This document shows, in pieces, positions 331-64,000 of a stretch of DNA of 64,000 nucleotides; position 1 is the first letter of the stretch, and the number at the start of each line of letters is the position of its first letter. The notes beneath the pieces were generated by a model. It made no database searches. It saw only the letters and a list, made by a program, of their open reading frames with translations, and was not told the DNA's origin. The DNA lies in NCBI GenBank assembly GCA_012295275.1, contig CM022670.1, positions 20,522,001 through 20,586,000 on the forward strand. Reading direction: 5' to 3'. The position numbers were made by a program, and so were the translations under genes. The DNA is from Chrysomallon squamiferum (lineage: Eukaryota > Animalia > Mollusca).

Positions 331-334
331 ATCT

Positions 335-800
335 ATATTATTACTGTCTAATACTTCAGCTGAAAACAGCTGTGATATTTATATTAATTTTATTTATTTG
401 GATTATTTGTTATAATAATTAATCATGTGAATTTTAATTTCTTATAATTATATTTTCTATTCTGCTTGCTACATACTGTGACATATAACAAGTTAATATG
501 TGTTTAAGGCTTTGGTTTATATCATTACTGTTATGATCTAGTGTTACTCTTGCAATGGAAATACAAATTTCGTTATTTTAAAATTTGCTATTCTTATCCT
601 TCAGGTAGAACACATTAAACCAGGTATTATAATAACGTTGTACACGAATTGTGACATTCAGTATTTTTATAAATGCAAAACTAAGTGTAGTAAGCTGAAT
701 TCAGATTTCTTCATCTTAAGATGAAAATGATTATGCAAAATAGAAAGTTCTTGAATTTTATCTTATTCCAGTGATGTATATAAAATTTAACATTTCTTTA
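335..800 (+). repeat. Copy of the gene-A-type 3' UTR/flank, implying another paralog just upstream of the window
   Basis: Aligns by eye with 13435-13870, immediately after the gene A stop (shared blocks such as tgtgtttaaggctttgg and aggtagaacacattaaaccaggtattata), and with 16585-16915. Confidence 0.75.
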
Positions 801-914
801 AAAATATATATATATATATCATTATATTATCTGATTTTTAGTTGCAACAATTTTCCTTCCACATATTGACTTATAATACTCCATTATTACGTCTTTTATA
901 TATATCAAATATAT

Positions 915-1988: not shown

Positions 1989-3060
1989 ATACTGCTCAAA
2001 AGAAGTTAAGGGTAAAACAATATTTGTGCAAATAAAAATAAGATAATATGCTTTAACTGGGATGACTAATGACTAATTATTTCATTGATATCTCAAGAAC
2101 AGAACACACAAAACAGGAAAACCTTTCTTTGGAAACAATCCAGATGGAGAAAGTCATGCATCCACCAAAATGATGTTAGCATGCAGTAAAAGTGACAGTA
2201 ACTGGTGTAATCACCACTAGCATTTACACATTCTTGACAACGTTGGCGCATGCTGTTAACCTGGCGTTGAAAATAACGTCGAGGAATCGCTTGACATTTT
2301 GCAACTAACTGACCCAGTTGTCGTCAGGGACGTAATCTTACCGAACTCGCAGGCATCGTTCATCCCATGCATGGACTATGGCTGACAAATCTGTTGACAA
2401 ATGTGCTGAATGTTCTGCTGCAGGATTCTGAGTTGATCACGAAGACGCCATGCGGTAACATAACGCTGTCGCAATATCGTTATCATCACGAAACTGTCTT
2501 CTCGTGCTGTTGTTGATCGTGGTCTTCCAGAATGGGAGCAATTCTGAATAGACTTATTCATCCTGAACCTCTTCCAGAGTCTATTTATAATACATTTGGA
2601 CGGTAACCCGCGGATCTTTAAGTGTGTCCATTTTATAGCCAGCCAGTGGCCTTTCGCCTCTCTTTTAAACTCAGCTGTCGACGAACCATCTTCAATTGTA
2701 AAGGATAATGCTCATCCCTTTCATTGCTAAAATTGGCATGCATTGAATTACACTCATGCTAAACACGTGCAAATGGTTCACTAGATAACAAAGCGAGTCT
2801 ATCGAGGCAGGCTGTCAGTTTAGTCTGACTATGTTTTTGCTTCAAATCCATGAACAGGAAATCTGGGTTATCTTAAGAAATTTCTAAAGATGAGGACAAT
2901 GATTGTATGCCGCTTAATAACGTAACGACTTTAGTCCAAATGACAACACAAAGGTTAATATTCAAACCCTATCAGACCTAAAAAAATATATAAAATTAAA
3001 AAAACATACTTCCAAAAATTATCAAAAGGTTTCTTTGACCCTTACCTTTTTTAGTAGTAT
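1989..3060 (-). mobile_element. Internally deleted, decayed Tc1/mariner DNA transposon (about 1.07 kb)
   Basis: Imperfect TIRs: atactgctcaaaagaagttaagggt (1989-2013) versus acccttaccttttttagtagtat (3038-3060). Minus-strand transposase remnant starts at ATG 2689 (MVRRQLSLKERRKATGWL*...HSGRPRSTTAREDS...RQRYVTA) and ends with a Tc1-type C-terminus (NSMRQRCQECVNASGDYTSY, about 2200). Only about 500 bp of coding remnant remains and no DDE core is visible. Confidence 0.85.
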
Positions 3061-4384: not shown

Positions 4385-4460
4385 ATGGCGGCACGATGGT
4401 TTTATTATCTATTTCTTGCGTCGATCTTCGTGAAAATAGCAGAAATGTATGCCGCACATG
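4385..4460 (+). CDS. Gene A signal-peptide exon
   Basis: acaATGGcg start context, hydrophobic core WFYYLFLASIFV, 76 nt ending in phase 1 at G|GCAAGT. Confidence 0.75.
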
Positions 4461-7400
4461 GCAAGTATTTCTATTTATTTATTTATTTATGTACTTTTTA
4501 TTTATTTATTTGACGTTCGAAATAATTGATTAATAACTATCACTTAGTCTTATCTACAATAAACTGTGTAACTTCTGTAATGATAATAGAAAACATATTG
4601 TATGGTGGTATTTTGGCTTTTATGTGTGTTCGTATATATGTATGCATGAATATGTGTATATACGTATATATGTATGTACGTATGTATGCATGTATCTATT
4701 TTCGTGCGTACCTACATGTATTTTGCAAGTATGTATATGTATGTATAATTGTATATTTTTATCTATATATGTGTGTACATATGCGTCTGTAAGTATGCCT
4801 ATATGTACGTACGTATGTACTTATCTTGGGTATGTCTGTTAATCCGTTTGCTTCAGTTAATATTACTATTGTTGTTATTTATGTTGGTGTCCTTGTTCAT
4901 ATTTTTGTTTGGTGTTTGACCGTGGTGCTTTTACCACGTCACTGTTTTATTTCCTAAGCCTGTGGTTCTGGTTTATATGGTCGTCAATGTAACAAACGTT
5001 GTAGTGATCGTCATTGTGCTGATGTTTCTGCACCGTGTCCAGCATGGGATGGATACTGCTCAGGAAAATGTGAAGATGGCTGGAGAGGAGGAGACTGCAC
5101 AACGGGTAATTATTTCAAAGAGAAATTAAGCGAATACCGTTACTACATCAATAAACAGACGGAAATAAAAAAGAACATTTTTACATTAAAGTGATTTAAA
5201 TTTTAAATGAATGAATGTGATTTAATCGATCTCAAAAGCATAATTATGTTATAATAATAATACTTTATTATTACTTTGTTAGAAGATATTTATAATTTGC
5301 TCTTCACTTTTGTACCGAATTTTAAGTAAACAACATTTATCTAGCTATTAATTTGAAATATCTTATTACCAGCATGTTCTGAATTTGGAAGATACGGTGC
5401 TAAGTGTGGATTTGTCTGTAGCAGTCGTCACTGTGCTTCGTCTAGAGCTTCTTGTGATACAGTCACAGGAGACTGTGGACCTGAAGGCTGCGAACCAGGC
5501 TGGAAAGGAATCGACTGTAAACAAAGTAATAACACAATTATTACTATGTTAGTGCCCACAAACAAAAATCAATTTTCTGTAATAATCAGTAATTAGTACA
5601 TTATTTCTCGGTTGCAGAAATGAGTGCAAATGTTAATTAGAATCTTAAATGTTGTTAGTTCAGAAATATTTTGTGAAGATTTAATAAGAAAAAAGGTATT
5701 GCTGGGTGAAACATATTGCTGGGTGAAACAAAATGTAAAGATTTAACTGCGAGAGTATCACAGCTGTTTTCTATTTCAGCATATTTGGAAATATTTATTG
5801 GCAAAGCTTTTGATTTATCTTTTATTGGTACCTTTTTTCCTGCAAAACATTTTTTGTGGCTTATTTACTTTCTTTTCTATCTGTTTCTGGTTGTCTGTTT
5901 GTTTATCTATTGACGTATTTATTTATTGTTCGTTATACATTCATGATGAAAACCAGTTTGAACTCTGAATTTATATGAAATTGAAATCTATTATTCACTG
6001 TGTTTCAGCATGTGAGAGGAGAGTAAAATATGGACCAAACTGTAAAAAGTCATGTTCACATCGTCACTGTGCTACAACTTCAAACTATTGTCCTTTCACA
6101 AGTGGAAAGTGTCATGATGGATGTCAGCCTGGATGGAAAGGAGTCGACTGTTTGCAAGGTTTACAAAATTTGAATTTTTCGCTATTATTATTGTTGCATT
6201 TGATTTCTGTCTTCTTTAATAATTCACATATTGTAAAATGTATTACTGTGATATATATATATATATATATATATGTATCGGGCATAAAGTAATCTTACTT
6301 GTTGTAGTCATTTGAGACTTGAAGCTATTATACTCTCATAAGAGTATATGACTTTTTAATTATACCCATTATACTTTTACTTTTATTAATTATTTATTTG
6401 TTGCTTTTGTTTGTTTGTTTCTTTTTTATTCGTTTATGACAATATTTATTATCACACTGACATTACAAAATACGAATAAATTGCACATAAAAGTAACAAA
6501 TTTGACAGATAAAACGGTTACATATGCAAATGTATTTTGATAAATGATATATAATTATATTCTTAGGAATAGTCAAATAAAATAGTTTATAGGCGTAACT
6601 CATAACATTTATCCTTTAAAACTCAAATAATTTAATGATTAATTATAATAAATCTTTACGTCCGCTGGTATTATAAATATAACTAAATACGGAGATCATA
6701 CACGTATGGTTCATGTACAACTAACTGTATATTTATATATACAGAATAACATGTTGTTTTGTAATAAAATAGTGGAACTGTTCTGAAACTTATTTTTTTT
6801 TCATTTGTAACCTGTATCGTCTGTAACATTTTGGACGGATGTTTGCGAGAAACTTTAACTGTGTTTATGTCCTTGAAAATGTCTAAACACTAAAACATAT
6901 ATCTATATCTACATGGATAAACTATATCAGTTTGTAAAATCATTAGAAGAAAAATACACGAAAAGAACTGAACATCACTAAATCGAAAAAAAAGAAGAAA
7001 AAAAAAACAATGATTCGTTTACAATTAACACTGTGTTTAATAAGATTCATTCAACCTAAAATTTCGTACGGTTCAATAATTATATCTTCAAAATAATATG
7101 ATATCGACTGTTTTCAAGGTTTCAAAGGTTCGCATTTCTCTCTATTATTAACATTATTATTGCTGTTGCTATTTCTTTCTGTTCTTTTGTGGTTAAAAGT
7201 GAATTTTTACCGCATCTTTGATTCATTTCTGAAGCCTGTGATGAGGGATTTTATGGTAGACACTGTAACAAAAGTTGTGATGATCGTCATTGTGCTGTTT
7301 CTTCTCCGTGTCCAGAAAGTAATGGATTCTGCTCAGGAATATGCGAAGATGGCTGGAAAGGTCGTGACTGTTCAACAGGTATTTATTTTAATATAATTGT

Positions 7401-8265
7401 TTTTAACATACCAAAAAAACATTAAATTTGAAAATGTAAAAGAAATGTAATATCTGATATTCAATTTAATCTATAAAATATAAATAATTATTCCTTTCAT
7501 ATAAATGCTTTCAAATTACTGAGTTGTTATCTGAATGGTAACAACTGTACTGAGATGTTTTCTAGTTTGTAGTCAAGATTCATATGGCCCTTAATGTTTA
7601 CTGAAGTGTTCAGAAAGACACTGTATGGGAGATTCAAGTTGTAATCACATTACTGGGACCTGTGAAAATGGTTGTCAGTCTGGTTGGGGGGGCACAGACT
7701 GCAGAGGTAAATAACTAAATAGAAAAATGTCACTATCTCTGTGGTGTTCCATTTCTTCTACCCTTACAATTGCAGCAGTATCTTAATTAACTACATGTTA
7801 TTATTGTGTATGTCTTTTCTTGATCTATGATATCTTTGCATTGTATATATTCAAACAAATACACACATGGATCAGTTGTGTTAGTTGTCAAATCATTGGG
7901 AGAAAAATACATGCATAGAATTAACTTTATGCTTAATATTATTAATTCAGCCTAAAATTGTAAGCTGCTAAAGTTCAGTAATTATATCGCCAAAATAATA
8001 AATTATAATGTACGTTTTAAAATATGATACAACTAAATTTAAAATTATTATAAAAATTCAGTGACAAATGTCATAGCGGTCTCTATACCAGAGTGTAAAA
8101 GAGGAATCAACTACGGTTCTAACTGTGAAAAGAAATGTGCCAGTCGTCACTGTATGTCTACAAATATGAAACAATGTGATCCAATTAATGGTTCTTGTTA
8201 CGGACAGTGTGAGGCAGGATGGATGAGAGTTGATTGTACAGAAGGTAATACTGTCACAAGAAAAT

Positions 8266-8349
<84 letters not shown>

Positions 8350-11300
8350 AAATGTATGTTTGTATGTATGTATGATGTGTTTTCAGTTACGTAATTCATG
8401 AAACCCTGAAAAACATAATGTATGATAATTATTCTCTTTATTGTTTTCTTTATCTAGAGTGTAAAACAAATTATGCATATGGACCAAACTGTTCAAAACT
8501 GTGTTCACATCGTAAATGTAAACCGTCATCTCCTTGCAACAAAACATCTGGACATTGTGAAGGTGGATGTCAACACGGATATTTAGGAGAAGACTGTACA
8601 ACAAGTAAAGAGATTATAATCGAATTTTATTTAAAAAATATAAATATTAAATGTACTAACAGCATTTAATTAAGTAATATACACTTATTTAGTGATATTT
8701 AGCGAAGAAAAAGGCAGAATACAAGAACAAATATGAATTAAATAACAACCTGATATACAAGTTAATATATTTTTTTTCGTATGGTTTTTGGATGGTTTTA
8801 GAGTCTGAATATGTGTGTATATATATCAGGGCATGTGTTAGATGTTGATCATTTGTATTATATTTTTCTTCTAATTACTTCTGTAATTACCATTATTAAC
8901 TTTATCATTTTGATTTATTTATTTATTTATTTATTATATTTTCAAACTGTATTTCTGCTGTTAATATTATTTAAATAAGAAAATTTTGATTCAGTTATTG
9001 TTTTATTATTGTTATTGTTGTTGTTGTAGATATTTATATTTTATTCAGATAGACAACCAGTAACTTAGTATTTATTTATTTATTTATTTATTTATTTATT
9101 TTTTTATTATCAGTTATCGTACTTTCAGTACAATCGGTTCCAATCCATCCTATCTCACAGAGGCCATTTTTACATTCACCAGTTTCTCTACTACATGATA
9201 AATTATTCATGCAATGTCTGTCTTTACATATTATATCATTTTATCTACTTATTTATTTATGACTATCTATGGATGTCATTTATAATAATCTTATTAGTTT
9301 TGTTCAGTAATTACAATCATTTATATTTATTTCTTGCTCAAAATCATCATGGAATAAGAGATTAAGAATGCTAACAACTGTACTGAGATGTTTTCTAGCT
9401 TGTAGTCAAGATTTATATGGTCCTGAATGTTTACTGAAGTGTTCAGAAAGACATTGTAAGGGAGATTCAAGTTGTAATCACATTACTGGGGACTGTGAAA
9501 ATGGTTGTCAGTCTGGTTGGGGAGGTACAGACTGCAGAGGTAAATAACTAAATTTTTAACTTTTATTTTCTGCATGGAAAGGACTTGTCTTCTGTTTGAT
9601 CTTCCTTTCAAAGTGCAGAAGTATTCCGACTAATTACCCTATATATGCTGAGTATGTCTTTTTTTTGAATACATTTCAGCTATAATATCTCTGAGTAGCT
9701 TAAATATGAATATTGATAACTATATCAGTTTGTTGAAAAAAAATGGAGAAAAATACAAGCAAAGAACTACACAATATAAACATTATGCTTATATTTATTT
9801 TGTACATATCCGTGTAAAACGAAACACTCTAGAGTATCAATAACTCTATTGATATTTACTGTTTTAGGATGTGATAGATACCATTATGGTGCTAACTGTT
9901 CACTATCCTGCTCAAGGAGACATTGTAAAGGTTATCAGTCTTACACATGTAATTCTACAAATGGAGCCTGTCCCAAAGGCTGTGATTATGGGTGGCAAGG
10001 TGTTGACTGTACAGGTAAAATATTCAACATCAGTATTTTAATTTTTATTGAATCATCTTTCTACCAGAAAACTATCATAATAAAAATCATATCACTGGAT
10101 TGAAAACACACATATATGTATTTATATGATAACTTCACGAATTATTTCCATTAAGTGATACTTTTTAAATTTCTGTATTTATGCATTGTTGCTTTTAGAA
10201 TAATTGGGTAAAAAAGAAGACTTGTTTCTGTATTTCAATCATAAAATGATATTGAAAGTGTGTACTGAACAGGTGATGTTAGTCTGGACATTGAGTAATA
10301 CTATTTTATAAAATACAATACTCTAAAATATTTATAATAAATTTATAATAAATATTATTATATAGTTTAGATTAATAATGAATAACAGAGTCTTGAGTAC
10401 ATTCTCCTATACACATATGAATGTATACAAATGATATATATTAAATATATTATTTTTACCTTTTTTACCTTTTTCATATTTTACCCTAGAATGTAGGGAA
10501 GGAATAACATATGGTGCTGACTGTCACAAGAATTGTTCTGATCGTCATTGTGTGAAAAATTCAAACTGTGACAAGAAATCTGGAAAGTGTATTGGAGGTT
10601 GTCAGCCTGGATGGAGAGGATCTGATTGTTTACAAAGTATATACTGTAGAATAACAAGCAAATTAATATTAAATATTTAAATTGTGAACATAAAATTAAA
10701 TGAACTTTTGTAAAATAGTAATATACCTTTTAAGATATTATGTATTGTAATTAAATATATCACACATTTTGTGATAATGATTATTAAATACATACAGAGA
10801 AAGAGAAAGAGAGAGAAAAAGACATATTGTTTTAGAATGCAATTGGTAAGACATCTTGAACAAGAATGATGCATATGAAATGGAATATTGAATTTTAGGT
10901 TATTCTGATGTAGTATAGTTAAATGATATATAAATATTTCTTAACTGTTAGATTACTGTTTTGTTATTATTCTTGTTGTCTTGGAAAAATTAAAAATATA
11001 TTTTATTAAAATAATAATGAAATAAATGTCACATTTTAGAATGTGGTGCTAGATATTATGGAGCTAACTGTTCACAGCTTTGTTCAAAGTGACACTGTGA
11101 AGGATACACCGCAGCCATTTGTCATCATGTAACTGGATCATGTCCTAGTGGATGTAAGACACGATGGAAAGGCACTGATTGTACAGGTAGAGCTTTGAAC
11201 ACTTATATTAATTTTGAAATACTCTTCAAGATGTTGTTTCATGTTTTCATCATAATAGCAAAATTATGTATACAGTACACAATTGTGCTATTATGATCAG

Positions 11301-11651
11301 TTCCTAACTAAAAAAAGATATGTATCCTATGAATTAATATTATTATTATTATTTGTAAAAACAATGAGATCCATTGTAATGTAAAGCAATGATTTCCTAG
11401 TAATATAACTTTAAGTGTAATATTCTTAAAGCAAAGATTCAAGGATTATAGAACATGGATTATAGTAAAATTCTCTTTCTCTTTCTATAAACATCAGGCA
11501 GAAAAAAACTTATGTGAGAGTCTAATGTATTGTACTATGAAATATTGCAATAAAGCTAATGGTTATTGTTGAAGAAAAGGAAAATGTATTTCTTGATATA
11601 ACTATATAGTCAATTTCCTTTTAATACATTGTCAGTGATAATTATTTATAA

Positions 11652-11709
<58 letters not shown>

Positions 11710-12151
11710 GTAATAATTTTTAACATTCAAGAAAACTGTAACATCCATAATATTAAATATGGTTATTTAAGTTTTTAATGATAACATTAATGAATAAAAA
11801 AATCTGATGGAATGGTTTTAACATTTCAGAATGCAATAACACATATGGTACTAACTGTGGTTTAACATGCAGTGTAAGACACTGCAAGAACGACAACTCA
11901 TCATGCGATTCAAAGACAGGAGAATGTATTGGAGGCTGCAAGCCAGGTTGGAAAAACCTTAGCTGCACTGAAGGTAAGATAAATCTTTTATTAAATAAAG
12001 GAAATAAATCTGCTTACATTGTCGCTGAACATTTATCACACACTGATATGTATTCATGTATGTCTGTCTCTTTTTCTGCGGGTAATCTGTTAACGTTATT
12101 AATGTAGTATTATGGACCTAACTGTTTACTGCATTGTTCAAAGCGACATTG

Positions 12152-12185
<34 letters not shown>

Positions 12186-12428
12186 GTTGTGTGTGTGTGT
12201 GTGACTTTTACAAAAGTATTTCAGAATTTCGTTAAATTTATTATGATATTTAATTTCAGAATGTTCTTTTTGGGAGTATGGAGAAAACTGCAAATATGAA
12301 TGTACAGAAAGACATTGCTATGGCCGTCAAAGGTGTGATCCAGAGAGAGGTGAATGTGTTGATGGGTGCATTGATGGCTGGAACGGAATTTCATGTACTG
12401 AACGTATAGTGACAATTTACCTTTAGAA

Positions 12429-12490
<62 letters not shown>

Positions 12491-13419
12491 TAACAATAAC
12501 AAGAGCAATATTAAAATATATACACATTTAGATAGTCATACACACTATCTTTAACTATCTATATTCAAATTTTTCATATATTTTCGTCTTTATTTATTTA
12601 TTCACATTCAGTTTGATTATTAGTTCAATGATATATTTGTCTTTATATATATATATGTATATGTATATAAATTTCAGCTAAACCTTTGAAGACCATCAAC
12701 ATAACCTTAGTTGGTTTCTGTGTCTCTCTTGGAGTATTGATTATTCTTCTTGTAATTTCTGGTTTAATCATTGCTAGGTAAGCATCCCTTCCTCTACACT
12801 TCGTTTACATTTCTGCAAGTTAAAGGCAAATTTAGTTATCCTGTTTTACACTACTTTATTTTCTTAAATTTCTATTTATTGATATCTGATATTAAGAATT
12901 TTAAAATTAAAATGTTAAAGAAATCATATTTACATCGTGATTTAAAATGACTTTTGAAAATATCCTATATGCTAACATTATATATATATATATAATCTGT
13001 TTGTGATAATCATAGCATGGACCGTATTAATTTTGTTTTCACTTGAATGTCTTCACACAAAATAACGTTTCTTTGTTACCTCTTAAAGTTCGGTGTTATT
13101 TTTATCGTGCATGATAAATAAAATTAATATTCTCTTCTTTTTTTTATCAAGATTCGTGCTTAGAAAGCATTTACTTTGTTCGAAACGTGAACTGACAGAA
13201 CTGAAAGAACTGAAGAAAGAAAACTCGGACACAGACCACGTTCCTACGTACGACACGGCATATGAAGAAGTGAGCGATAAGAACTCGAATGCTGAACATC
13301 AGTATCAAAATGTGAGACAGTCTGAAAAGTGCAGCGAACCTGATACAAACACTTATGAAAAGCTAGAAAATGATGTGGTTGATGAACCTTCTCCTTACGA
13401 TGTAATCATCATTTCGTAA
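4385..13419 (+). CDS. Gene A: multiple-EGF-repeat type-I membrane receptor (MEGF10/SCARF/Draper-like), no lectin domain; two EGF exons carry in-frame stops
   Basis: Signal exon 4385-4460 (MAARWFYYLFLASIFVKIAEMYAAH, GC donor). EGF exons 4959-5105, 5373-5525, 6009-6158, 7235-7378, 7566-7706 (TAA), 8092-8244, 8458-8604, 9399-9539, 9868-10014, 10490-10636, 11040-11186 (TGA), 11830-11973, 12260-12403; all are AG..GT, phase 1-1, 8 Cys. TM exon 12678-12777 (ITLVGFCVSLGVLIILLVISGLIIAR). Cytoplasmic exon 13152-13419 with YEEV, YQNV, YEKL, SPYDVI. Confidence 0.85.
7566..7706 (+). pseudogene. Stop-containing EGF exon in gene A, duplicate of 9399-9539
   Basis: ggc cct TAA tgt (7592-7594) where the sibling exon has ggt cct GAA tgt. 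The flanking intron sequence is also duplicated and the splice sites are intact. Confidence 0.85.
8269..8346. repeat. (TC)n microsatellite
   Basis: Direct reading. Confidence 0.95.
11040..11186 (+). pseudogene. Stop-containing EGF exon in gene A
   Basis: TGA at 11090-11092 replaces R of the RHC motif, and GW has become RW. Closest sibling is 9868-10014. Confidence 0.85.
12108..12155 (+). pseudogene. EGF exon remnant truncated at a (TA)n tract
   Basis: Translates YYGPNCLLHCSKRHCN, then runs into (TA)n. Confidence 0.7.
12678..12777 (+). CDS. Gene A transmembrane exon
   Basis: tttcag|CT...AG|gtaagc, phase 1-2, about 24 hydrophobic residues. Confidence 0.85.
13152..13419 (+). CDS. Gene A cytoplasmic tail exon with tyrosine motifs
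   Basis: Within ORF 13093-13419. Acceptor ttttatcaag is phase 2, matching the TM exon. Confidence 0.85.
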
Positions 13420-15489
13420 TTAGAAGTAATAAATATATTGTTACTGTCTCATACTTCAGTTAGTTACTTCAGTTACTTATATTAAATTTATGTACTGTGG
13501 TAGTTTGTTATACAAATTAATGGTGTGAATTATGATCACTTGTTATGATATTTTCTATTCTGCATGCTGCATGCTATGATAAACAAAAAGTTAACATGTG
13601 TTTAAGGCTTTGGATTATAGTATTACTGTTATGATATAATCTTACTCTTATAATGTAAATAAAGATTTCATTACTTTATAATTTGCTATTCTAATCCTAC
13701 AGGTAGAACACATTAAACCAGGTATTATAACAACGCTGTACATGTATTGTGACATTCAGTATTTTTATAAATGTAATAAACCGAATTCAGATTTTGTCAT
13801 CTTAAGTTGAAAATGATTATGTAAAATAAAAATTTCATGAATTTTAACTTATTGATGTGATGTATTTAAAATATAATGTTTTTAGAACACACACATATAT
13901 TCACAACAAAAAAAAAAAAAAGTGTGAAAGAAAGAAAACGAAAAAGAAAATAAATAGAAAACAAAATCCAGTCTAATATGTGCCAGGTCATCTTTCTTAT
14001 AAAATAAGTTAATGCTACTCAGTCATCACATTATTGTATTTCTTTTTTTTTCTTCTCTTCTCTTCTTTCTTTCTTTCAGTCTGTCTTCATTCTTTCGGTC
14101 TTTTTTCATTCTTTCTTCATTCTTTCTGTCTTTTTTAATTCATTTTTATTTTCTGATGTACATCCAAACGTAAAATATTTTCGCAAAATATAAAATTAAA
14201 ACTCTTCATGTAGACTTTTGTTTGTTAATGTATTTCGTTTTCTTGTTTTTTCTGCAGATAATTATGTCATTATGTTATCTCACTTTTTAGTTGAGAGGAT
14301 TCTCCCTGCACATACTGATTAAAAATGCTGCGTTTATTTTATTTTATTTTATTTTATTTCATTTTATTTATTTATTTATTTATGTTAAATGGAAGAAATA
14401 AAACGAAATAAAACTGCATACAAGCAATAATCATCAGCTTTCTGACAACGATTTAATTAGGTTGTCTTAAGAGACAACAAGAGCCCAGGGTAGTTCTAAA
14501 TAATAAACGTGTACTGGCACCATTAAATTGTTTTTCGTTAAGATATATTTTCATTTGGTAACAATCTTGCATAGTTTGTTTCAAAACACATCAGTTTCAA
14601 GTTTACGGACGAGAAAGTTATTTCAAACATTATTAAAAGGCAAAAGCCCTGCCACTTTTCTATTATTGTTAAGTTTTTTTTTTTTCTTTACTGAAAATAA
14701 TTTTTATGAATGTTATTTTTTTTATCTTTAGATTTCGGAGAGGACTATATTATTGATATCAGTAAACCTACAGTTTAGTTGTAGCATGAAAACGACAGTG
14801 ATAGCTCTTCATTATAATAATAGCACGTGCTATGTCAAAGTTACATCAAGGTGGTTTCTCACCAAAATTGTTTATAAATGTGTGCTTTAAAATTTTAAAT
14901 TATATATTCAAGTATTTATTCACGAACAATAATTATACAATAATTCAATATAAGCAGAAAGAAAAAACCCAATTATTTTATATTGCGTAATCTTTATAAC
15001 AAACATATACTAAAAATATGCCACTTATAATGGTGATATAGCGCCTTTGATCTGTTGATTGTCAGTTTTCATTAATGGATATAACACTCATTGGACATGT
15101 ATGAATACTTTACTGATACAGAGCAGCTGTATCCTGTAAAGTGAAGTTGATTATCGCATTGTCATAATTATTATGTTTGTGTTTGTTTTGGAGTTTTTTT
15201 TTTTTTTTTTTTTTTTTTTGTTGTTGTTTACTATTATTATTATATAATTTGATTATTTAAAGAATATTTATGAACGGGACATCTTATTGCTGAACATGCA
15301 CGACAGTCTTATTAATACTTTATTTTGTTAATAGTTGTCATACAAAGACCAATCATTGTTTCTTGATTACAATTAATAAGTTGACTGTAATTTTGTTAAG
15401 AAGAATAAAGTTTGCGAAAGAAAGATAAATATTATATATGTAGCACGGTTCTTTGATATACCAATTATTGATCACTGAAATACCTCAAT

Positions 15490-15750: not shown

Positions 15751-16072
15751 CTCATGAATAGATGATCATGCCGAGCAAGGGACACTAGATTTGACCTAAC
15801 GGCATCGCCGCAAAACGAAAAAAGAAGAAAAATCACAAAAACCGCCAATGTAAAGTGTGATATTTGAGATTATGACATTTGTGACAAATGTCCACTAACA
15901 TTTTTCTTTTGTTATTAAAAATTATTTAATATTTATGTAAAAATTATTTCAACGATATTTATAAAGGTAAATATCTGGATGCAGTATGAATAATAACAAC
16001 TATATAGGTTGTTATTATATATATGTTTTACAAAAGTATTTCAGAATTTTAATAAATTGATTCTAATATTCG

Positions 16073-16232
16073 AATGTTCTTTTGGGGAATATGGAGAAAG
16101 CTGTCAGTGTAGAGACGTTGCTGTGGTCGTCAAATCTGTGATCCAAAGAGAGGTGAATGTGTTGATGGGTGCCTTGACAGATGGAACGGAATATCCTGTA
16201 TTGAAAGTATACTGCGAATATGCCTTTAGAAG

Positions 16233-16271
<39 letters not shown>

Positions 16272-16570
16272 ATAGTAACAATAAAATTATATAAATAATC
16301 TGTTTATGATAGTCATACCATAGACTTTGTATGTGTTGTATTAATGTTGTATTCACTTAAATATCCTCACACAAAATATTACATCAGTATTACCTCTGAA
16401 ACTTCGGTGTTTTTATCTGGTACAAAATAATCCATATTACTCATTTTTCTTTTTCATATAGACTCATGATTAAAAAGCGTCACATTCTTAGAAAGTTGAA
16501 CTGACCAAATTGAAAGAAAAATGAAGAAGAAAAGGTAGGATACAGACTAGGTTTCCATTACAACACAATA
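16073..16570 (+). pseudogene. Relic of the 3' end of a gene-A paralog
   Basis: 16073-16206 is a copy of EGF exon 12260-12403 with the acceptor AG lost and a 10-nt deletion. No TM exon is visible. 16462-16570 is a degraded, internally deleted cytoplasmic exon followed by the same 3' flank. Confidence 0.8.
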
Positions 16571-18002
16571 GAAGTAACTAATGTATTATCACTGTCTCAT
16601 ACTTCAATTAAAACCAAATTTGTTATCAATATTAAATTCATTCATTCTGATAATTTGTTATAATAATTAATGATGTGAATTTTAATCTGTTTTTATGATA
16701 TTTTCTAGTCTGCATGCAGCATGCTATGACAAACCAAAAGTTAACGTTTGTTTGAAGCTTTAGTTTACATCGTTACTGTTTCATTGCAAATAAAGATTTT
16801 ATTAGTTTATAATCTATTATTCACATCAGTTTGAGCGCATCAACATTGTACAAGAATGCAGAACAAAGTATAATAACCTGAATTCAGATTTCGTCATATA
16901 AAGTTGGAAATGCGAAAGAAAAAGTTCATTTAAAATATGTTTTTTTTATAACAAACAAAAACAAAAATAAAAACAAAAACAACCAACGGAAGAAAACAAA
17001 CAAACAAACAAATATTCAGTCTGGTATGTGCCAGGTCATCTTTGATATAAAATAATATAGTTTCTTCTCACTCATCAAATCCTTGATGAGTGGTATGCAT
17101 GGTTATTTGCATGGTTTCGATGTTATAACTGACAGCTTAGAGTCCCCAGTCCTAAATGTAGGGTCTGTCAAAACATCGGACGATGAAAGGTCTTACGCAG
17201 TAATTGATGAATACCACGCCCCTGGAAAGGTTACACAGATGTTGACCAATCACAACTCCCTCTGCACTTCAGAGGTGTGATTTTAAGTGTGTATTTCCAC
17301 ACATTTACTGCGTAAGTTTGTCAGTGGGAAAGTAAATTAAGTTTGGAAGAAATAGTTACATCTACGTAGATAGGAACAACGCTGTGTGTGATCCACTGAC
17401 GAGTCTCGAGCGTATAGCACCAATACGCCGCACTCCGAGGATAAAAACAAGATGACGTGAGATCTGAAATAAAAGACTGCGAAAAACAAAACTAAAAGAC
17501 AAATGATTGTGTCGTCAGTGATGACAGTCCGAAAGAATAAAGGCTGAATAACGATTACCATGATACGAGAATAGTAAAACAAACAAAAATAGAAAGAAAA
17601 AAAACCCAAAAAACAATAACACACAAATGAATGAATGAATGAGTGAATAGATAAATAGATAGATTAATAAATACGTAAGGAAGTATGTGATAAAATTAAT
17701 TAATTTTTTAATAACCACGTATTTTATAATATAAATAAATAAATAAATAAATAAAAGGCTCGTATTTGTATAAGATAGATAACAGGACTTAGTACGCATA
17801 TAGCTGTTATTCAAGTTGCAGCAACAGACAACATTTATCAATAACAGTAATGGTTTTGTTTCAAAGTTATATTGCTTAATTTAATATTATTTGATATATT
17901 TCAGTGCTTGAAATTAATGCTTGAAATTTACAACCAATTCTGTGTATATTCTAGACTCACTTTATTTTGCTGTAACACCCTTTTTCAGATTAATAAATTC
18001 AT

Positions 18003-18202
18003 NNNNNNNNNNNNNNNNNNNNNNNNNNNNNNNNNNNNNNNNNNNNNNNNNNNNNNNNNNNNNNNNNNNNNNNNNNNNNNNNNNNNNNNNNNNNNNNNNN
18101 NNNNNNNNNNNNNNNNNNNNNNNNNNNNNNNNNNNNNNNNNNNNNNNNNNNNNNNNNNNNNNNNNNNNNNNNNNNNNNNNNNNNNNNNNNNNNNNNNNNN
18201 NN
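18003..18202. other. Assembly gap (200 N)
   Basis: Run of 200 n. The round number suggests a scaffolding gap of unknown true size. Confidence 0.98.
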
Positions 18203-20529
18203 ATAACATTTATTGTGAGTTAGCGTTACGGAACAAAATGCAGTAGTCATCGTTCTAAAGGGCAGCTTGACTGTATCAGTTTCTCATACTTCCTGATCAT
18301 ATTCTTGTTACCCTTGCAGTTTTCTTTCAGCATAAATAGAAAAGATAAACTGCACATATTACATATCATCTCTGCTGAAAAAGCCTATTAAAAGAAAAAT
18401 GATATTCTTCAGTGTTTTACCTTCCCTATATATGTGATTTTATCAGTTCATCACAGTGCATGTATTTCTATCTGCCTAGGTTAAAATGATATGATTTAAA
18501 CCATAGTAAGAGATAACTCGACAGACAGTTTCGTTTGGAAGACATTCAGAGAAAAAAAACTAGCTATGGAGAGGGGGATTTGGGTTGTTGTTGTTGTTTT
18601 TTTTGTCTTGTTTCTTTTTCTTTTTTTTTTTCTTCCAGGTTTTCTATCATTTTCCATTATTTAGATTTTAGTATAATAAATAAATAAATAAATAAATAAA
18701 AATGAGGTCAATCTGATTTTTCGGCAATTGTTCAGGATTAATTATTAGAACAATTTTAATGCAAAAGGGTATATTTGATTATAAACATGTTAACACACTG
18801 ACACCAAATTATTACAATAACATTATGTATCTAATCTAAATTGTCATTTAATTCTAGATAATAGATCTAGGAATCTTTTTATATGTACAGTTGTAGTAAT
18901 GGTGGTGGTAGAAGTAGTAGTAATAGTAGTTGTGGTAATAGTGCAGCGATGGATATAATAAAAGTAGTCGCAGAAACAGAAGTAGTAGTAATAGTAATAA
19001 TATTAGAAGTAGTAGCAAAAAATAGTTGTAACTACTATTAGAAGTAATAGTGGTAGTAGTAATAGTAACAGTAGCAGTTATAGTAGTAGTAACATATGTT
19101 GTATTCTACAATCTATTCTAAGTCTTGTACAGAGAGACTATGAGGATATAATATGAAATGTTAGATGTAAGGTAAAATAGAAGAAAATAAAAAAGAAGAC
19201 TGTTTAATAGTTAAACATTTCCATAGATAATAAAAAAAGAAAAACGCAGATTGGCATGTGACAGGCAAGTGGATATGCAATTAGAATGGCCAGTGGATAT
19301 GGTGTTGGATACAAAAAGATACCATTATTAACAAGGATTTTCAATGTCACTGTCATTTGTTTAGAAATAACAGCTATTGTGAATTAATGTTACGGAACAA
19401 AGCGCAACAGCAGTCCTCCTATACATCTCTTGCGCCAACGACCATACTGATTATACGGCTTCTTTTTCATTGTGTAAGCATATTCTATTTCAAACTACCA
19501 GCCATCAGCGGCAACACGGATAACGTGATCTGCAGCCGTCGTTTCGGGAAGTGTTTCTCCCTTTGCAGCAGATAACCAGTAGCCCCCAAAAAGAATTTTA
19601 TTTGTAAATTCAAAGACGATTATGATATTTATAATAAATTACAGTTCACGTAAGTTAAATAATTAGCAGATAACAAAATGAATTAAACAGATGTAAAAAC
19701 ACTACTTGTGACAAAAGGTATTTTTATTAGTTTGATCTGGTGCATAATATATTCCGTAAAATGTATTAATGTAGTTAAGTTGTCTGTTTTGTTTCCGTTA
19801 TTTGGGGGTTTTTTTGTCTTAGAAACCATTATACAGCAGAGATGATGTCTGTACGAATGAATTAATAAATAACGAACCTCAAAATGTAATATTTAAAAAT
19901 ATATATTATTAATTAATTAGTTTATTTATTTATTTGTTGTTGTTGTTGTTGTTGTTCTAACCAAAGTTACAGTTTCGACAACACATCTTTTTCTACATGT
20001 AATATAAAGGAAACTCTAAAAAAAAGTAATGTTCGAGAAACTTTAATTTTTTCGATTTTTGAAAACCCAAATAACTAAACAGCTAATAAAATAATTTTTA
20101 ACTTACTATAATCGGCTATCGTTCGTCCTTATTGTAAAATAAGAAAACTAGAAACTAGAAACTGAAGATTTATCCAGCATCCAGCCATAGCGAAAATGTT
20201 TCGTAGATAAACCAACCAGGAAGTTTACGCAATACTTATTGTCACGATTCACCAATGACAAAAGATAAACAGCATCTTACATTACATAATATATTGTATT
20301 GAAAACCCCAAAGCAAATACTTTTGGACAGAGGAATGTAACTCTGTTAAATTAAACTAAATTTGGATCCAGGAAAACTGGTTTTTCACTCGTAGTGAAAT
20401 CAGGTCACATCATACAGAAAACTTGTCATCATATTAGTGTCATAATACCCCTGTTAATATATATCACAGGTTTATAAATATGGCAGACAAACCGCACAAA
20501 CGTGTACATATGCCTTTGTTTCTGTATAC

Positions 20530-20625: not shown

Positions 20626-20988
20626 AAACAAATTAATATAACAGCTTGGACATCTCTAACTTCACCTGACATTTGTTTTGTTTTTGTTGTAATTGTTTTG
20701 ACAGGGATGTTATTGTTCTTGCAGTTTATATATTTATCTCCTAGGCTTTTGGGGGACAATTGTTTGGTTATTTTAAACTTTCTAATAGAGTTTTTTTTTT
20801 TCTTCCTTTTCTTTCTTTTTCAAATTTAACAGCAGTATTTAATTTTAATAACGTTTTATTGTTTAAACGAGCATAAAATTTGTTTTAAAATAATTACTAA
20901 ATAAAATGCTGTTATTAGAAACTAATTAGGCTTTTTTATTTTATTTTATTTTATTTTTATTTTTTATTTTTTTATGCTTTTGTCACAG

Positions 20989-22385
20989 AATATCAGATTG
21001 GTTTGTATGGATCAAACTGTAATAAGTTTTGTTCCAGCAGACACAGTTTACATCAGTCTATATGTAACACACTGACTGGGACTTGTAATGGACAGTTTGA
21101 GCTGGATGGAAAGGAATTGACTGAACTGAAGGTAGGTACAGATATACACATTTTTATTTTTGCATGTATTTATGTATATGTGTGTGTGTATTTATGTATG
21201 TATGTATGTATGTATGTATGTATGTATGTGTACATATATCCATCCATCCATACATACATACACAGAGGTGAGTGCGTTTCCGAATATTGTCTATATGCAG
21301 TCTAATCAGACGAATAGAATATGTATTCCTAAATATATTCCTGCCAGTGCCAGGTTTCCCACAGAAACAAAATGCATAGAAAAATGACGAAAGACAAATA
21401 ATGGCGTACTTCGTTAGGAAGTGATGATTATCCTCGTTGCGATTGCCAGTTTCATTAACAAGAAACAAATAGACAAAAACACTCAAAAACATTATTAACT
21501 ATATAATGTCAGTTTAATTAAAGTTAATGACAACCAGAAGCGATAACATTTTTTTTCTAAATCATAGAAAACAAATCAGAATGTCTAATGGATTGTGTTT
21601 AGTCTGAAGTTTCCTTGTTTAGAATAGAGAAAATGTCACATATATTTGTGTGTGCTTATGTGTATGTATGTGTGTGTATGTGTGTACAGCAATCTTTTTA
21701 ATGAAATTATGTAAAGTGTAATTACAGAATGTGTTAAAGAAGTGACCTGTGGAAGGATTTATTTACAGAATACTAAACTGAAATATTTTCTACTTAATTT
21801 TCATATTATTGTTATTATAAATTCAGTGAATATACATCTGGACAATAGACTATTAAATTAACTGAAAACACATACTCTTAATGTTTTATTTATTAATCCA
21901 CACAACAAGAAATATTAAATTTTTTCTTCTTTTTTCATAAAAATTAACAGCTAAGCAAAGTCAGAATTTAGAGTAATAAGATTTTATTATTTGTGAAACA
22001 GAATCTCTCTACGTGTTAAATATTTTAATTATATAAAATATGCACTTACTAACTAATAACGTAAAAAAGGAATACATCTGCTGATTATACGAAGACAAAC
22101 ATCCTCCACAGAACTTTCAGTATCATTTGCAAGAAACGGCAAATGTCATCCCAGAATAGCAGCTACTCCGTCATCAGTGTATGAAGTATTTGATGAAGAT
22201 GTCAATAGAGTCATACCACTAGATCACAATGGCACTCAAACAATTTCACCAAGTGGTGATGAGACAAGTTATGTAAACACCTGACATCAAGAAGAACTGA
22301 AGTATTCGAGAAATAAACGATTATGATAAACTAGATACTGATGTTACTGGACAGGGATCTCCATACGAAATTTTTTTAAAAGTAA
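20989..22385 (+). pseudogene. Relic of a B/C-type receptor paralog
   Basis: 20989-21131 is an EGF exon homologous to 43535-43678 with Cys losses and a 1-nt frameshift. 21728-21755 is the 5' stub of the 46398-type exon. About 22075-22385 is a cytoplasmic exon copy (LIIRRQTSSTELSVSF...SSVYEVFDED...ETSYVNT*) with TGA at 22282-22284 and no acceptor or TM exon visible. Confidence 0.85.
21262..21415. mobile_element. Interspersed repeat or MITE-like fragment, second copy at about 52773-52940
   Basis: Both copies share gtgcgt..gaatattgtctat..gcagt, agtgccaggtttc.caca and aaaaatgacgaaagacaaa, and sit in non-homologous contexts. Both begin near a cagrgg-like end. Confidence 0.55.
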
Positions 22386-24347
22386 TATATAGATATGTAG
22401 ACACAGCTTTTATAAGTAAAGATAAAATGATTTATTAATTATTTTAGCAATGTCTGTAAAGCACATGTACTATTTTGATGTATACCATAACTTTATAAAA
22501 GAAACATTATTTCTCTTAATAATATGAACAATATAAATCATTTTAGTCACTTCATTATAGATAAGTAAATAGATTTCTAAATGCCAATTGTCCAAATTAT
22601 ACTAATACTAATATTGTATTACTCGTCTGACATTGCATATGGTAGAAATTAAATAAAACAGTCCGAGTATTACTATTAGAACAGTAAATTAACAATGTAT
22701 TATGTCATCATGACAGATTGTCTTTATTCTAAACAGACGGAGCCCTACTGAGTACTAAAAATATTGTTACCGCAAGATGACGATGCTCATAGTCTGATCA
22801 GAAGTATATTATACAGACTGACTAACTAATTACGAAAGATTAGATCTACTGGAACACGTTATTACAGTAAACTAAAAATGAATAATTTTTTTATATGTTC
22901 GTGGCGGCCAACAACCGTGACACAAACCAGATACTGGAACATCATATCATATCACATGCACACGTTTGTAAATAGGCAACTTAACGCTGATACATTTATA
23001 CATACATACATACATTCATGCATATGCACATACATACATATGCTCATACATAAAAATACATACATATACACATTCACACATACATACATACATACTTATA
23101 AAAGATCAAATAACATAGCTCTAAGCTTAGTATAAATATATATATGATACGTACGGATAGTGAAATTTGATACACTTCAGTCTACATTTTATTACAGTTC
23201 TTTTCAAATATTTAGCCATTCGTGCATGCTTAAATACATACTGACACTAAGAACTGACCTTTTTACATGAAACATTTGTCTCGTTGTAGAAGAATCAACA
23301 GATCTCTATAGTTTTCGATACGCTCGGTCTAGCTGTCTGATATGTCTGAAAGATAACTTGTGGCGAAGAGCAAGATTATTTATCGTTATGGTGTTTGTTT
23401 CATATATCTGGGTGTATTAATAATACTTGTTTGTTACATTAAATGCTACGTATTTTATTAGTATGATCTGTGTTATCGCATGAACAGTAAAGGCATAGTC
23501 TGAGTAAATCGCTCTAGGTCAAACGATCAGCATAGAAAAAACGATTTTATATTTACTAACGTATCATTTCTGTATTTATAAAAATCATAATACAGTATTA
23601 AGTTATGTTTTATTTTTATTAATATCTTAAAATAAAGTTATTATCATCACTGTTCAAATATTTTTATGTTTTGCACAGTCACGTAGATTAATCATGTGAT
23701 AGTGTTACGCGCTATAATTTACTCATTCGTTTATTTTTAATTATTTAATTGTTTTCTTTTTCAGAATTGTTTTTAAGGTTTTTCTTTCAGTTTCAGATCT
23801 GATAATTCTTTACTTTTAAAAGAATCAGCTGTATTCATTGATTTATATACACACGCACGCACGCACGCACAAACATTTATATATATAGATCCCCTGAATA
23901 AATGTATGTATGTATGTTTATGTGTTTCTATGTATATATATGTGTCCATGTTTTGTGATGTGTTTTATATTGGTATATAACAGCTGACAATATAGGGGTA
24001 TTCATGTCTCCACACTTCCTCCGTAAGCAAAGCCTATTAGCTATCTTTACTACGATCAACAATGATCAATATGAAAACACCGCTTGTGGGACAATGTGGA
24101 GGCCGAAAATTAAACTTCATGGGTGTGGAAATAGCACGCTTTGATTGGTTGAAGTTCCGAAACGATTGACACCTGTGGAAGCATGAAAAACTTGACTGAT
24201 GAGAGAATGTATATAAAAAGTTTTCTAGGTATTGTGACATAATTTTAGTACGAGTAAAAACCTTTAAAATCAGTGTGTTTAATTTATATAGTGTTTATCG
24301 AGTCTTGTGTAAACTCTCAATTTTACTTCCTGGACGGCCTGTCTACG

Positions 24348-32488
<8,141 letters not shown>

Positions 32489-34623: not shown

Positions 34624-36464
34624 GTAAGTTATGAAACATTATTGTTGTTGTTGTTGTTGTTGTTGTTTCTGTTGTTGACGTTGTTACAGGTAGAGGTGGT
34701 GATAGTACATGTTTGAGAGAGTTAGAGAAATAATGTACCAGGAAGATATTACGTTTCCTTTTTTATTATCATGTGTCTTCTTTCGTGTAAATCTGCTGTT
34801 TATTGTTACAGCATTATCAAAACCATATTAAACAACACAATCACATAAGTAGTATATTATCTATTTATTATTTAACGTACTTTCAGAGGACACTGATATA
34901 TAAGTTTGATGAAAGATGAGTTACTTTATAACGTAAATATACGGTGATAACAAATACTTGCATTCTAAGTGTCACAGAAACAAACATGAGTACTGAATAT
35001 TTCTATATAAACTGTTTTGATCTCACTAGATAGCACTAAACATAATTCTTTAATTATAATTGTACTTTCCTGTACATGAACACAATTTTAGTTTAAATGA
35101 CTGGCTGCTTTTAGTAAAATATTCACAGAAATAATATTGTGAAAACATTTATAAGAGCCATAATTGCTGTAGCAAGGCTGTCATTCCTATAAACAATTAC
35201 ATTAACTATACTGTTGAGACACTGATATAGCTCTATGTATTATTACTACAATAAATATAACAATTATTTATAATTACACTGTATATTTAATACAAGTAGT
35301 TTTGAATACTGAAGCGGTCTGTTGGACTTCAGATAAACTGGAGAATACAAAATTAAAAAGATATATATAATAGTTGCTATTAGTACTAATAATACTATTA
35401 ATAACAATTTCCTCAAAAGACCTGTAATTTTATTAAATGTCTAATATCATATATTGTGAATATTTAGTAAAATTAATAGGCTGAATATTACTATTAATTA
35501 ATTATGTACAGTTGGAGTTGAACTGAGTACTGAAAGTATAGTAACCAACATTTTACGTTGCAAATAAAAATATTTATATGAGGCACACGATGATCATTCA
35601 CTTAGTCTGATCAAGAGTATATTATACAGACTGACACTAACCAATTTCGAAAGATTGGATCCAAGGAAATATTTTATTGTAATAAACTAAAAATGTTTTA
35701 TTTCATATATATTCATGGCGGCCAACAATCATGATCTAAACCAGTTACAGGAACATCATACTAAAAACTAATAAGACAAAAAGATGTAAATTATTAAGAT
35801 AAACAGGATTTTAAAAGTGCTGTATAGCAATTTATAAACAATATTACAATATTTTTGTTTCGCTTTTTCTGTTTTCCTTTTCAATATGTGTAATATGGTG
35901 CCTCACAAGTGTTTGATTCTGGAAAAAGTATACACATTTATTTAAAAAATATTTAGACGATATTTAGAGGGTATTTAGCGTATTCAGGATATTTTCAAAC
36001 GATATAAAAACTCACATTTAAATTCTTTTACTAAGAATTAAATTTTTCTATCATACACAGCTCAGTAACTTATATTCTTTACCAGTTTTATTACCTTTTT
36101 GTTATTTCAGAATTATTCCCCTTGAAATCGTATTATGATTTTTTTTTCTTCATAGAAACAGTGACCGCGTAGTAGTAGTTTGAGTCAATCGCTCTATGTC
36201 AGGCCTGCATCTTAGTTTTATTAAACATGTTAATTACACTAAAGATTTATTCTCTAAACTATAATAATAGAATTAAATATCACAACATCCGTATCGAGAA
36301 GTCATTCACTATAATAAACGCATTAACAAAATAAAATTCTCAAGTCTTGTATTATTTGTTAAATTTTGTAATTATCAGCATAACAATTCTAAGCTTCTTC
36401 TTTCCTTTTCTTCTCTGATAATCCTTTACTTTTAAAAGAAGTAGCTGTATTTTTAAATATTCAC

Positions 36465-36495
<31 letters not shown>

Positions 36496-36891
36496 GATAT
36501 ACATGTGTGAGAGTATATATGTTTCTGTGTTTTGTTTATATATGCGTATATATTTGTATATGTGTATTTGTCTATGTTCTTATTATTTGTTTTATATTCT
36601 TATACGTAAGTTGACAATATAGGGGTATTATTACACCTTTCTGATGAAAGAATGTGTTGTGACCTAATTTCAGTACGAGTAAAAAACCTGTTTTGCTGGA
36701 TCCAAATTAAACCTCAGTGTGTTTAATTTAATATGAATACCTTCCTCTCTTCAGTTCATATTTGTTAAGACCTTTTCACCAGAATATATTAGATGGTGTT
36801 TATCTTTTCTCATTGGTGAATCGCGACAACGAGTCTTGTGTAAACTCGCAGTTTTACTTCCTGGTTGCTTTGTCTACGAAACATTTTCGCT

Positions 36892-50465
<13,574 letters not shown>

Positions 50466-53755: not shown

Positions 53756-64000
<10,245 letters not shown>

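What the first reader, a model, noticed from the sequence alone, without database searches (positions are those of the whole stretch)
4959..12403. Symmetric phase 1-1 EGF cassettes with dead exons inside an otherwise intact gene: possible combinatorial splicing of stalk length
Seen: all 13 EGF exons of gene A are multiples of 3 nt, so any subset stays in frame. Two carry stops (7592 TAA, 11090 TGA), yet the leader, 11 other EGF exons, TM and tail are open with Cys intact. Each dead exon has a living sibling in the same gene (7566 with 9399, 11040 with 9868). Inference: damage concentrated in redundant duplicates suggests they are skipped, so these genes may splice cassettes combinatorially. 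Alternatives are a young pseudogene, poison exons that trigger NMD, or a secreted truncated form.
Basis: partly seen in the sequence, partly recalled or inferred. Interest (0 to 1): 0.7.

Follow-up and report, generated by a model that had tools for sequence, protein, structure and literature searches.

The report
Snail receptor stop alleles, not cassettes
In a snail gene for a predicted immune-type surface receptor built of 13 repeated exons, the two 'dead' exons are intact in other gene copies and one stop codon is spliced into the RNA rather than skipped, so this is likely a broken copy in a fast-changing gene family that also shows some in-frame exon skipping.

Summary
The sequence facts hold: 13 phase 1-1 EGF-like exons, TAA at 7592, TGA at 11090, the rest open. 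The inference 'dead exons are skipped' fails where it could be tested. The TGA is real: it occurs in DNA contigs of two samples from two studies, beside a CGA version. Spliced RNA includes it (E10-E11*-E12) at 0.40 of depth, against 0.33 in that sample's DNA. The TAA appeared in none of 4 runs laid on it; two spliced samples include that exon with a sense codon and one skips it. So these exons are alive in the species, and the window holds a stop-bearing copy. In-frame skipping exists (E4-E6; probably others), but some joints come from near-identical copies with other exon sets, and database isoforms of abalone and Gigantopelta relatives already drop single modules (19 of 29 comparisons). The gene belongs to the molluscan MEGF/scavenger-class-F-like receptor clusters. 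The scan noted this family elsewhere in this genome, but not this feature. Left open: the stop transcript shows no obvious decay and would encode a secreted ectodomain.

The parts
4385..4460 (+). Leader exon, predicted signal peptide; GC donor
   Evidence: loose end of RNA run X8 at 4961 is the end of this exon, so leader joins E1 directly
4959..5105 (+). E1, 8-Cys EGF-like module, 147 nt
   Evidence: E1-E2 joint in X4, X6, X8
5373..5525 (+). E2, 153 nt; many coding differences between copies
6009..6158 (+). E3, 150 nt; joined to E4 and, by a loose end, to E12 in X4 and X8
   Evidence: tables 5, 7
7104..7148 (+). Remnant of the 3' end and donor of an E3-like exon
   Evidence: blastn, 80% over 45 nt
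7235..7378 (+). E4, 144 nt, 79% like E1
7566..7706 (+). E5, 141 nt, TAA at 7592 in the window; sense (GAA) and included in X4 and X8, sense in DNA run X2, skipped in X6
8062..8244 (+). E6 with two acceptors, 8062 (adds 10 aa in frame) and 8092
   Evidence: joints at depth 28.6 and 25.4 in X4
8458..8604 (+). E7, 147 nt
   Evidence: 148 letters between E6 and E8 in contigs of X4 and X6
9120..9234 (-). Inverted decayed copy of an EGF exon inside the E7-E8 intron
   Evidence: nhmmer E 2e-14
9399..9539 (+). E8, 141 nt, 93% like E5; likeness ends about 30 nt upstream and 15-20 nt downstream
9868..10014 (+). E9, 147 nt
10490..10636 (+). E10, 147 nt
11040..11186 (+). E11, 147 nt, TGA at 11090 (CGA in other copies); both versions occur in DNA of X1 and X3 and both are spliced E10-E11-E12 in X6
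   Evidence: tables 3, 5, 7, 8
11830..11973 (+). E12, 144 nt
   Evidence: loose ends
12108..12154 (+). Decayed EGF exon fragment ending in an (AT)n run
   Evidence: nhmmer E 7e-8
12260..12403 (+). E13, 144 nt
12678..12777 (+). Predicted transmembrane exon
   Evidence: hydrophobic run in the translation; no reads laid here
13152..13419 (+). Cytoplasmic tail, 88 aa, four Yxx[L/I/V] motifs, no catalytic domain
   Evidence: no reads laid here

Best explanation
The window holds a stop-bearing copy of a variable, multi-copy snail gene predicted to encode a MEGF/scavenger-class-F-like surface receptor; its stops are likely young point mutations in exons that are intact and used in other copies, and the TGA exon is spliced in, so this copy would make a truncated, membrane-less product or none. 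How it works: one symmetric exon encodes one 8-Cys module (shown). Such exons are gained by duplication and lost by decay without shifting the frame (shown by duplicates and remnants). The number of modules therefore differs between genomic copies (inferred from contigs) and, to a lesser degree, between transcripts through in-frame skipping and a second acceptor (one skip shown, others likely). Redundant copies let nonsense alleles persist (inferred). Intact copies likely act as recognition or adhesion receptors that signal through tail tyrosines (inferred from family and motifs; untested).
For: TGA 11090: DNA run X1 has a contig identical to the window over 10917-11260 (depth 36.9 of 110.7) and a CGA contig with 27 differences (73.8). 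X3, from another study, has both too (8.88 and 10.1 of 19). X6, spliced and from the same sample as X1, has a 218-nt contig with E11 identical to the window, joined to E10 and running on into E12 (4.94 of 12.2). All 6 contigs laid from X6 are listed and none joins E10 to E12. X4 has only CGA (65.2 of 65.2) and includes E11. TAA 7592: G at full depth in 4 of 4 runs; an X2 DNA contig spans 6436-7618, so it is E5's own locus; E4-E5 joints in X4 (31.2) and X8 (3.6), E5-E6 joints in X4. Turnover: three remnants in gene A's introns, two neighbouring pseudogenes and more remnants in genes E and F. Other copies: contigs with 7-14 differences per exon joined in another order in X4, and an E5/E8-like exon with a different acceptor in DNA of X3. 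Family: 291 hits at E<=1e-10; the 120 listed are, where named, molluscan MEGF/draper-like/PTP-type proteins, the best from Gigantopelta and Haliotis. Similar unstable clusters with EGF loss are described in Biomphalaria (PMC12297450 section 8, PMC13712769 section 20).
Against: The TGA transcript is not depleted although it lies 94 nt upstream of a junction, which a plain null allele subject to decay would not lead one to expect. All runs are assembled contigs: depth is one figure per contig, isolated variants are dropped, and nothing is phased. Tables were cut (47 and 52 variant rows and 19 loose ends hidden), so a minor E10-E12 skip in X4 is not excluded.
Confidence: 0.66

Rival explanations
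1. The TGA version is a kept allele or copy that makes a secreted ectodomain (predicted 485-495 aa if E5 is skipped), acting as a soluble decoy or opsonin beside the membrane forms.
For: TGA present in DNA of 2 of 2 samples laid there, from two studies, at about 1/3 and 1/2 of depth; its spliced RNA is at 0.40 versus 0.33 in DNA. The same sample skips E5, which would remove the upstream TAA. The leader is spliced on in X8. None of the 29 exonic differences shown removes a Cys.
Against: CGA to TGA is a CpG transition, the commonest route to a nonsense codon (recalled). The stop cuts a module after 16 residues, not at a boundary. RNA depth is only about 5 and comes from contigs. No protein evidence. 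Two samples say little about allele frequency.
Confidence: 0.17
2. One reading: the gene splices cassettes combinatorially to tune stalk length, and the stop exons are normally skipped and hence free to decay.
For: E4-E6 joint without E5 in X6; E3-E12 loose ends in X4 and X8; E8(or E5)-E10 joint in X4; two E6 acceptors. 19 of 29 isoform comparisons in relatives lack one or two 8-Cys modules.
Against: E11 with TGA is included and no E10-E12 joint was shown. E5 and E11 are sense and included in other samples. Most joints seen are between neighbouring exons. Several skip-like joints carry 7-14 differences and fit other genomic copies. E11 has no close duplicate.
Confidence: 0.12
3. Poison-exon control: inclusion of the stop exons sends the mRNA to nonsense-mediated decay and so regulates the gene.
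For: Both stops lie more than 55 nt upstream of a junction; decay may operate in snails (PMC12277549, passages).
Against: The stops are polymorphic in DNA, not fixed features; TGA-bearing RNA is not depleted.
Confidence: 0.03
4. Both stops are assembly errors.
For: TAA 7592 was seen in none of 4 runs laid on it, and no matching row was shown when E5 contigs of X1 and X3 were cross-laid on E8 (52 rows hidden). It may be an error or a private variant.
Against: TGA 11090 is in contigs of two DNA runs from two studies and in one spliced run.
Confidence: 0.02

Closest known systems
Biomphalaria MEGF / 'potential scavenger class F-like' single-pass receptor clusters (LG5R subgroups 1A and 1B, PMC13712769 section 20; SudRes1, PMC12297450 section 8)
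   Same: Tandem cluster of signal peptide + EGF/Tie2-like repeats + one TM + short tail. Gene A fits subgroup 1A (no lectin); neighbours D and E fit 1B (galactose-binding/F5-F8 domain). Gene fragments, copy differences and EGF-domain loss between haplotypes are described there too.
   Different: The sections and passages read do not describe a spliced-in nonsense allele or skipping of EGF exons (supplements not read). No link to a parasite is known here.
RefSeq 'MEGF10/11-like' genes of Haliotis spp. and Gigantopelta aegis (e.g. XP_046583488.1 and its isoforms; XP_041374465.1 and XP_041374466.1)
   Same: Same 46-52 aa 8-Cys module; isoform models drop one or two whole modules in 5 of 6 sets compared.
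   Different: These are automatic models whose read support I did not check; tails differ (tail A had no hit and one weak hit, E 0.008, among the fetched proteins).
Human SCARF1/SREC-I, MEGF10, Drosophila Draper, C. elegans CED-1; Tie2 EGF repeats
   Same: Repeat type: Tie2 EGF region matched by profile (E 0.002); SCARF1 ranks 2-4 in the fold search but only at E 0.24-0.36.
   Different: Orthology not tested. No EMI domain is evident in gene A, where the leader joins E1 directly (EMI as a MEGF10/Draper feature is recalled).
CD97/ADGRE5 EGF-exon splicing (PMC9101421, passages)
   Same: In-frame choice of EGF exons changes ectodomain length.
   Different: A single-copy 7-TM receptor with three defined isoforms and known ligands; no stop exons, no copy turnover.
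Botryllus fester family (PMC12065747, passages)
   Same: Polymorphic, copy-variable invertebrate receptors with genotype-specific splicing of stalk exons. Here one sample skips E5 while two include it.
   Different: Different domains (Ig/sushi, three TM); the review itself notes that many PCR variants were not found in bulk RNA. Genotype-specific splicing is only hinted at here.

Membership tests
Molluscan MEGF/scavenger-class-F-like single-pass receptors | Tandem 8-Cys EGF/Tie2-like repeats | tested here: met
   Pfam DSL matches 7 of 11 exons at E<=0.1 (best 1.2e-4; the exons whose bit scores were shown fall below the curated cut-off)
Molluscan MEGF/scavenger-class-F-like single-pass receptors | Signal peptide, one TM helix, short tail without catalytic domain | tested here: met
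   read from the translation; no Pfam family in the tail; no signal-peptide or TM predictor was run
Molluscan MEGF/scavenger-class-F-like single-pass receptors | Occurs in a tandem cluster with fragments and lectin-bearing paralogues | tested here: met
Molluscan MEGF/scavenger-class-F-like single-pass receptors | Binds a ligand and acts in immunity | not testable with these tools
   inferred from family only
MEGF10/Draper/CED-1 orthologues | N-terminal EMI domain and orthologous position (recalled) | tested here: inconclusive
   leader joins E1 directly in X8, leaving no room for an EMI exon in that transcript; no tree built
Dead (constitutively skipped) cassette exons | Stop fixed in the species | tested here: not met
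   sense versions of both exons in other copies and samples
Dead (constitutively skipped) cassette exons | Stop exon left out of mRNA | tested here: not met
   E11 with TGA included in X6; E5 skipped in X6, but its stop was not seen in any run
Cassette-spliced EGF arrays (CD97-like) | The same genomic copy yields both inclusion and skip transcripts | tested here: inconclusive
   inclusion (X4, X8) and skip (X6) of E5 are in different samples; contigs are unphased; a haplotype lacking E5 is not excluded
Poison exons | Inclusion depletes the mRNA | tested here: not met
   TGA share 0.40 in RNA contigs versus 0.33 in DNA contigs of one sample; low depth

The most novel reading that the evidence does not exclude
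A common nonsense allele turns one copy of a snail membrane receptor into a secreted, decay-escaping ectodomain, while individuals also differ in which stalk exons they splice: a membrane/soluble receptor pair with genotype-specific stalk length, made by a polymorphic stop plus skipping.
Probability: 0.17. Interest if true: 0.6.

Novelty: new member of a known kind. Interest (0 to 1): 0.3.

Why it matters
As it most likely stands it is ordinary for a fast-evolving invertebrate receptor cluster, and it is a caution: stop codons in one assembled haplotype do not mark exons as skipped. Its modest value is that it shows three layers of stalk-length variation in one gene (exon turnover, copy differences, skipping) in a family tied to parasite resistance in other snails. 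If the TGA copy makes a stable secreted protein, it would be a simple route to soluble decoys and a natural test of how strong nonsense-mediated decay is in molluscs, which the one paper read on it calls unconfirmed (PMC12277549, passages).

Tried and rejected
No whole genome was held, so copies outside the window could not be searched. A homologue search with the 88-aa tail found nothing among 87 candidates (weak evidence). The single-module model (pLDDT 78) gave no fold match at E<=0.001 and does not show the disulfide pattern. Stop-codon recoding was rejected: the three stops in the window differ (TAA, TGA, TAG in gene D) and replace Glu, Arg and Gln by single changes. The weak Pfam match of E1 to a scorpion-toxin family (E 0.081, 13.7 bits against a cut-off of 27) is taken as chance from Cys spacing. 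Joints 6091-7564, 10552-9366/9399 and 9440-10957 were set aside as probable cross-matches between similar exons or repeats. Selection test: 22 of 29 exonic differences shown change the residue, against 80% expected from site counts; the rows are a truncated subset, so no dN/dS claim is made. Using cross-laid E5 contigs on E8 to see the TAA in X1/X3 gave no row among those shown, which is uninformative because contigs drop isolated variants. Of 9 runs listed, 6 were laid; X5, X7 and X9 were not. No reads were laid on E7, E12, E13, the TM exon or the tail. Seven paper searches: the two aimed at splicing in molluscan MEGF genes listed nothing whose title or abstract start describes it; most subscription journals are not covered. 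Scan look-ups near the finding, by sequence and by words found nothing.

Full report
1. Observation. All are multiples of 3 and in phase 1. A leader (4385-4460, GC donor), a TM exon (12678-12777) and a tail (13152-13419) complete the gene. Internal stops are TAA 7592 (E5) and TGA 11090 (E11); without both exons the frame runs 686 aa. Eight Cys are invariant in the 11 open exons. The symmetry follows from all exons being copies of one module and is no evidence of splicing. E5 and E8 are 93% alike, with likeness confined to the exon and short flanks (recent duplication or conversion). E11 and E9 are 65% alike, against a median of 56% over 78 pairs, so 'damage falls on redundant duplicates' rests on one case in gene A. 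Gene D offers a second: TAG in 29713-29859, whose neighbour is 96% identical.

2. What the gene is. A profile of the 11 open exons found 291 proteins at E<=1e-10; the best are from Gigantopelta aegis and Haliotis and are named MEGF6/10/11, draper-like or receptor PTP. The window is therefore most likely from a gastropod; I do not name a species. The module matches Tie2 EGF repeats (E 0.002) and weakly Pfam DSL (7 of 11 exons); a fold search ranks SCARF1 high but without significance. The tail has four Yxx[L/I/V] motifs. The window is a tandem cluster: A, two pseudogenes (about 16.0-16.6 kb and 20.9-22.4 kb), D and E with an F5/F8-type galactose-binding domain (E open for 803 aa, D with one internal stop), and the start of F. 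Exon remnants lie in introns of A, E and F. This matches the 'scavenger class F-like' clusters of Biomphalaria (PMC13712769, section 20 and passages read; PMC12297450, section 8 and passages read; supplements not read).

3. Are the stops real? Nine runs were listed and six laid, all as assembled contigs. At 11090, DNA run X1 has a contig identical to the window over 10917-11260 at depth 36.9 of 110.7, plus a CGA contig with 27 differences. X3, from another study, has both forms (8.88 and 10.1). X1 may be the assembly's own sample; X3 is independent. The stop is real and polymorphic between alleles or near-identical copies; the 1:2 ratio in X1 suggests three copies. At 7592, 4 of 4 runs show G at full depth. 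Some of those contigs are E8 cross-laid at the 90% threshold, but an X2 DNA contig spanning 6436-7618 and X4 contigs joined from E4 are E5 itself. The TAA was never seen.

4. Are the stop exons skipped? X4 and X6 are labelled 'DNA?' but cover almost only exons and join them at GT..AG, so I treat them as spliced RNA. For E11, X6 (same sample as X1) has two 218-nt contigs E10-E11-E12: one identical to the window with TGA (4.94) and one sense (7.3). All 6 laid X6 contigs are listed and none skips E11. The TGA share is 0.40 in RNA and 0.33 in DNA, so neither skipping nor strong decay is visible, at low depth. X4 includes sense E11 (44.2) and a more divergent E11-like exon (21); with 19 loose ends hidden and E12 outside the stretch, a minor skip there is not excluded. 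For E5, X4 and X8 join E4 to E5 and X4 joins E5 to E6. X6 has one 668-nt contig E4-E6-E7-E8-E9 without E5. An X1 contig that appears to run from E4 into E5 has depth 101.6 (my reading of a cross-laid piece), so this is probably true skipping, but it cannot be tied to the TAA.

5. How much combinatorial splicing? Besides E4-E6, there are loose ends E3-E12 in X4 and X8, a joint E8(or E5)-E10 in X4, and two in-frame acceptors for E6 (8062, 8092). X4 also holds a chain of exons with 7-14 differences each, joined E3'-E5' and E6'-E9', and DNA of X3 holds an E5/E8-like exon with its own acceptor and the same first letters. Part of the variety is therefore likely genomic. In relatives, I looked up 8 of the 120 listed hits and compared isoforms in six sets: 19 of 29 comparisons lack exactly one or two 8-Cys modules, in 5 of 6 sets. 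These are automatic models, but they show that module skipping is a family-wide and already annotated trait.

6. Mechanism. Shown: one exon is one module; duplicates and remnants; a polymorphic TGA that is spliced in; sense inclusion of both exons; one skip of E5. Inferred: symmetric exons allow gain, loss and skipping without frameshift; copy redundancy tolerates nonsense alleles; the window's copy gives a 232-aa product if E5 with TAA is included, or 485-495 aa if E5 is skipped, both without TM; intact copies are recognition receptors signalling through tail tyrosines.

7. Comparison and novelty. It works like the Biomphalaria MEGF clusters for DNA turnover, and like CD97 (PMC9101421, passages) or fester (PMC12065747, passages) for stalk splicing; it is a member of the first kind only. 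PMC13619432 (passages) lists MEGF genes among infection-responsive snail genes. Two searches aimed at splicing in molluscan MEGF genes listed no paper on it, so the detail may be unpublished, but the design is known. An earlier scan note on another piece of this genome concerns the same family and gave the lead to PMC12297450. Verdict: real observation, mostly wrong inference, new member of a known kind, interest 0.3. The undepleted TGA transcript is the one point worth a test.

Noticed in passing
window 24348-32488 (gene D): Lectin-EGF-TM paralogue with three EGF exons; the middle one (29713-29859) has TAG at 29754 and a 96% identical tandem neighbour (30897-31043).
   Followed up: partly
window 36892-50465 (gene E): Open 803-aa paralogue: leader, two lectin exons, 10 EGF exons, TM, tail. 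Exon 43535-43678 has a GC donor. The two lectin exons are also symmetric phase 1-1 (207 and 222 nt). The choice of leader is my guess among two candidates.
   Followed up: partly
window 34545, 36892, about 53760 and 56260; inverted copy about 20070-20270: Several copies of the D/E-type leader exon lie upstream of genes E and F, within a 2.2-kb block duplicated at 98% (34755-36993 and 54136-56359): possible alternative first exons or relics.
   Followed up: no
window 53700-64000 (gene F): Leader copies and at least six EGF exons but no lectin exons seen; a 1.3-kb tandem duplication (59070-61711, 96%) carries one intact and one decayed exon per unit.
   Followed up: partly
window 15990-16600 and 20900-22400: Two pseudogene relics: one like the end of gene A (frameshifted E13 and tail), one like the end of D/E.
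   Followed up: partly
window 8062-8091: Second in-frame acceptor adds a 10-aa Cys-free spacer before E6; both acceptors are used at similar depth in X4, only the longer in X6.
   Followed up: yes
window 4460-4461 and 4872-4958: Leader intron has a GC donor; one spliced contig of X6 keeps the end of this intron in front of E1, possibly slow splicing or another start.
   Followed up: partly
window 334-815: 80% like the 3' UTR region of gene A (13434-13900): another A-type paralogue probably ends just upstream of the window.
   Followed up: no
window about 2100-2700, minus strand: G+C-richer stretch whose translation recalls a Tc1/mariner-type transposase fragment (recalled likeness, not searched).
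   Followed up: no
window 18003-18202: 200-N assembly gap inside the cluster.
   Followed up: no
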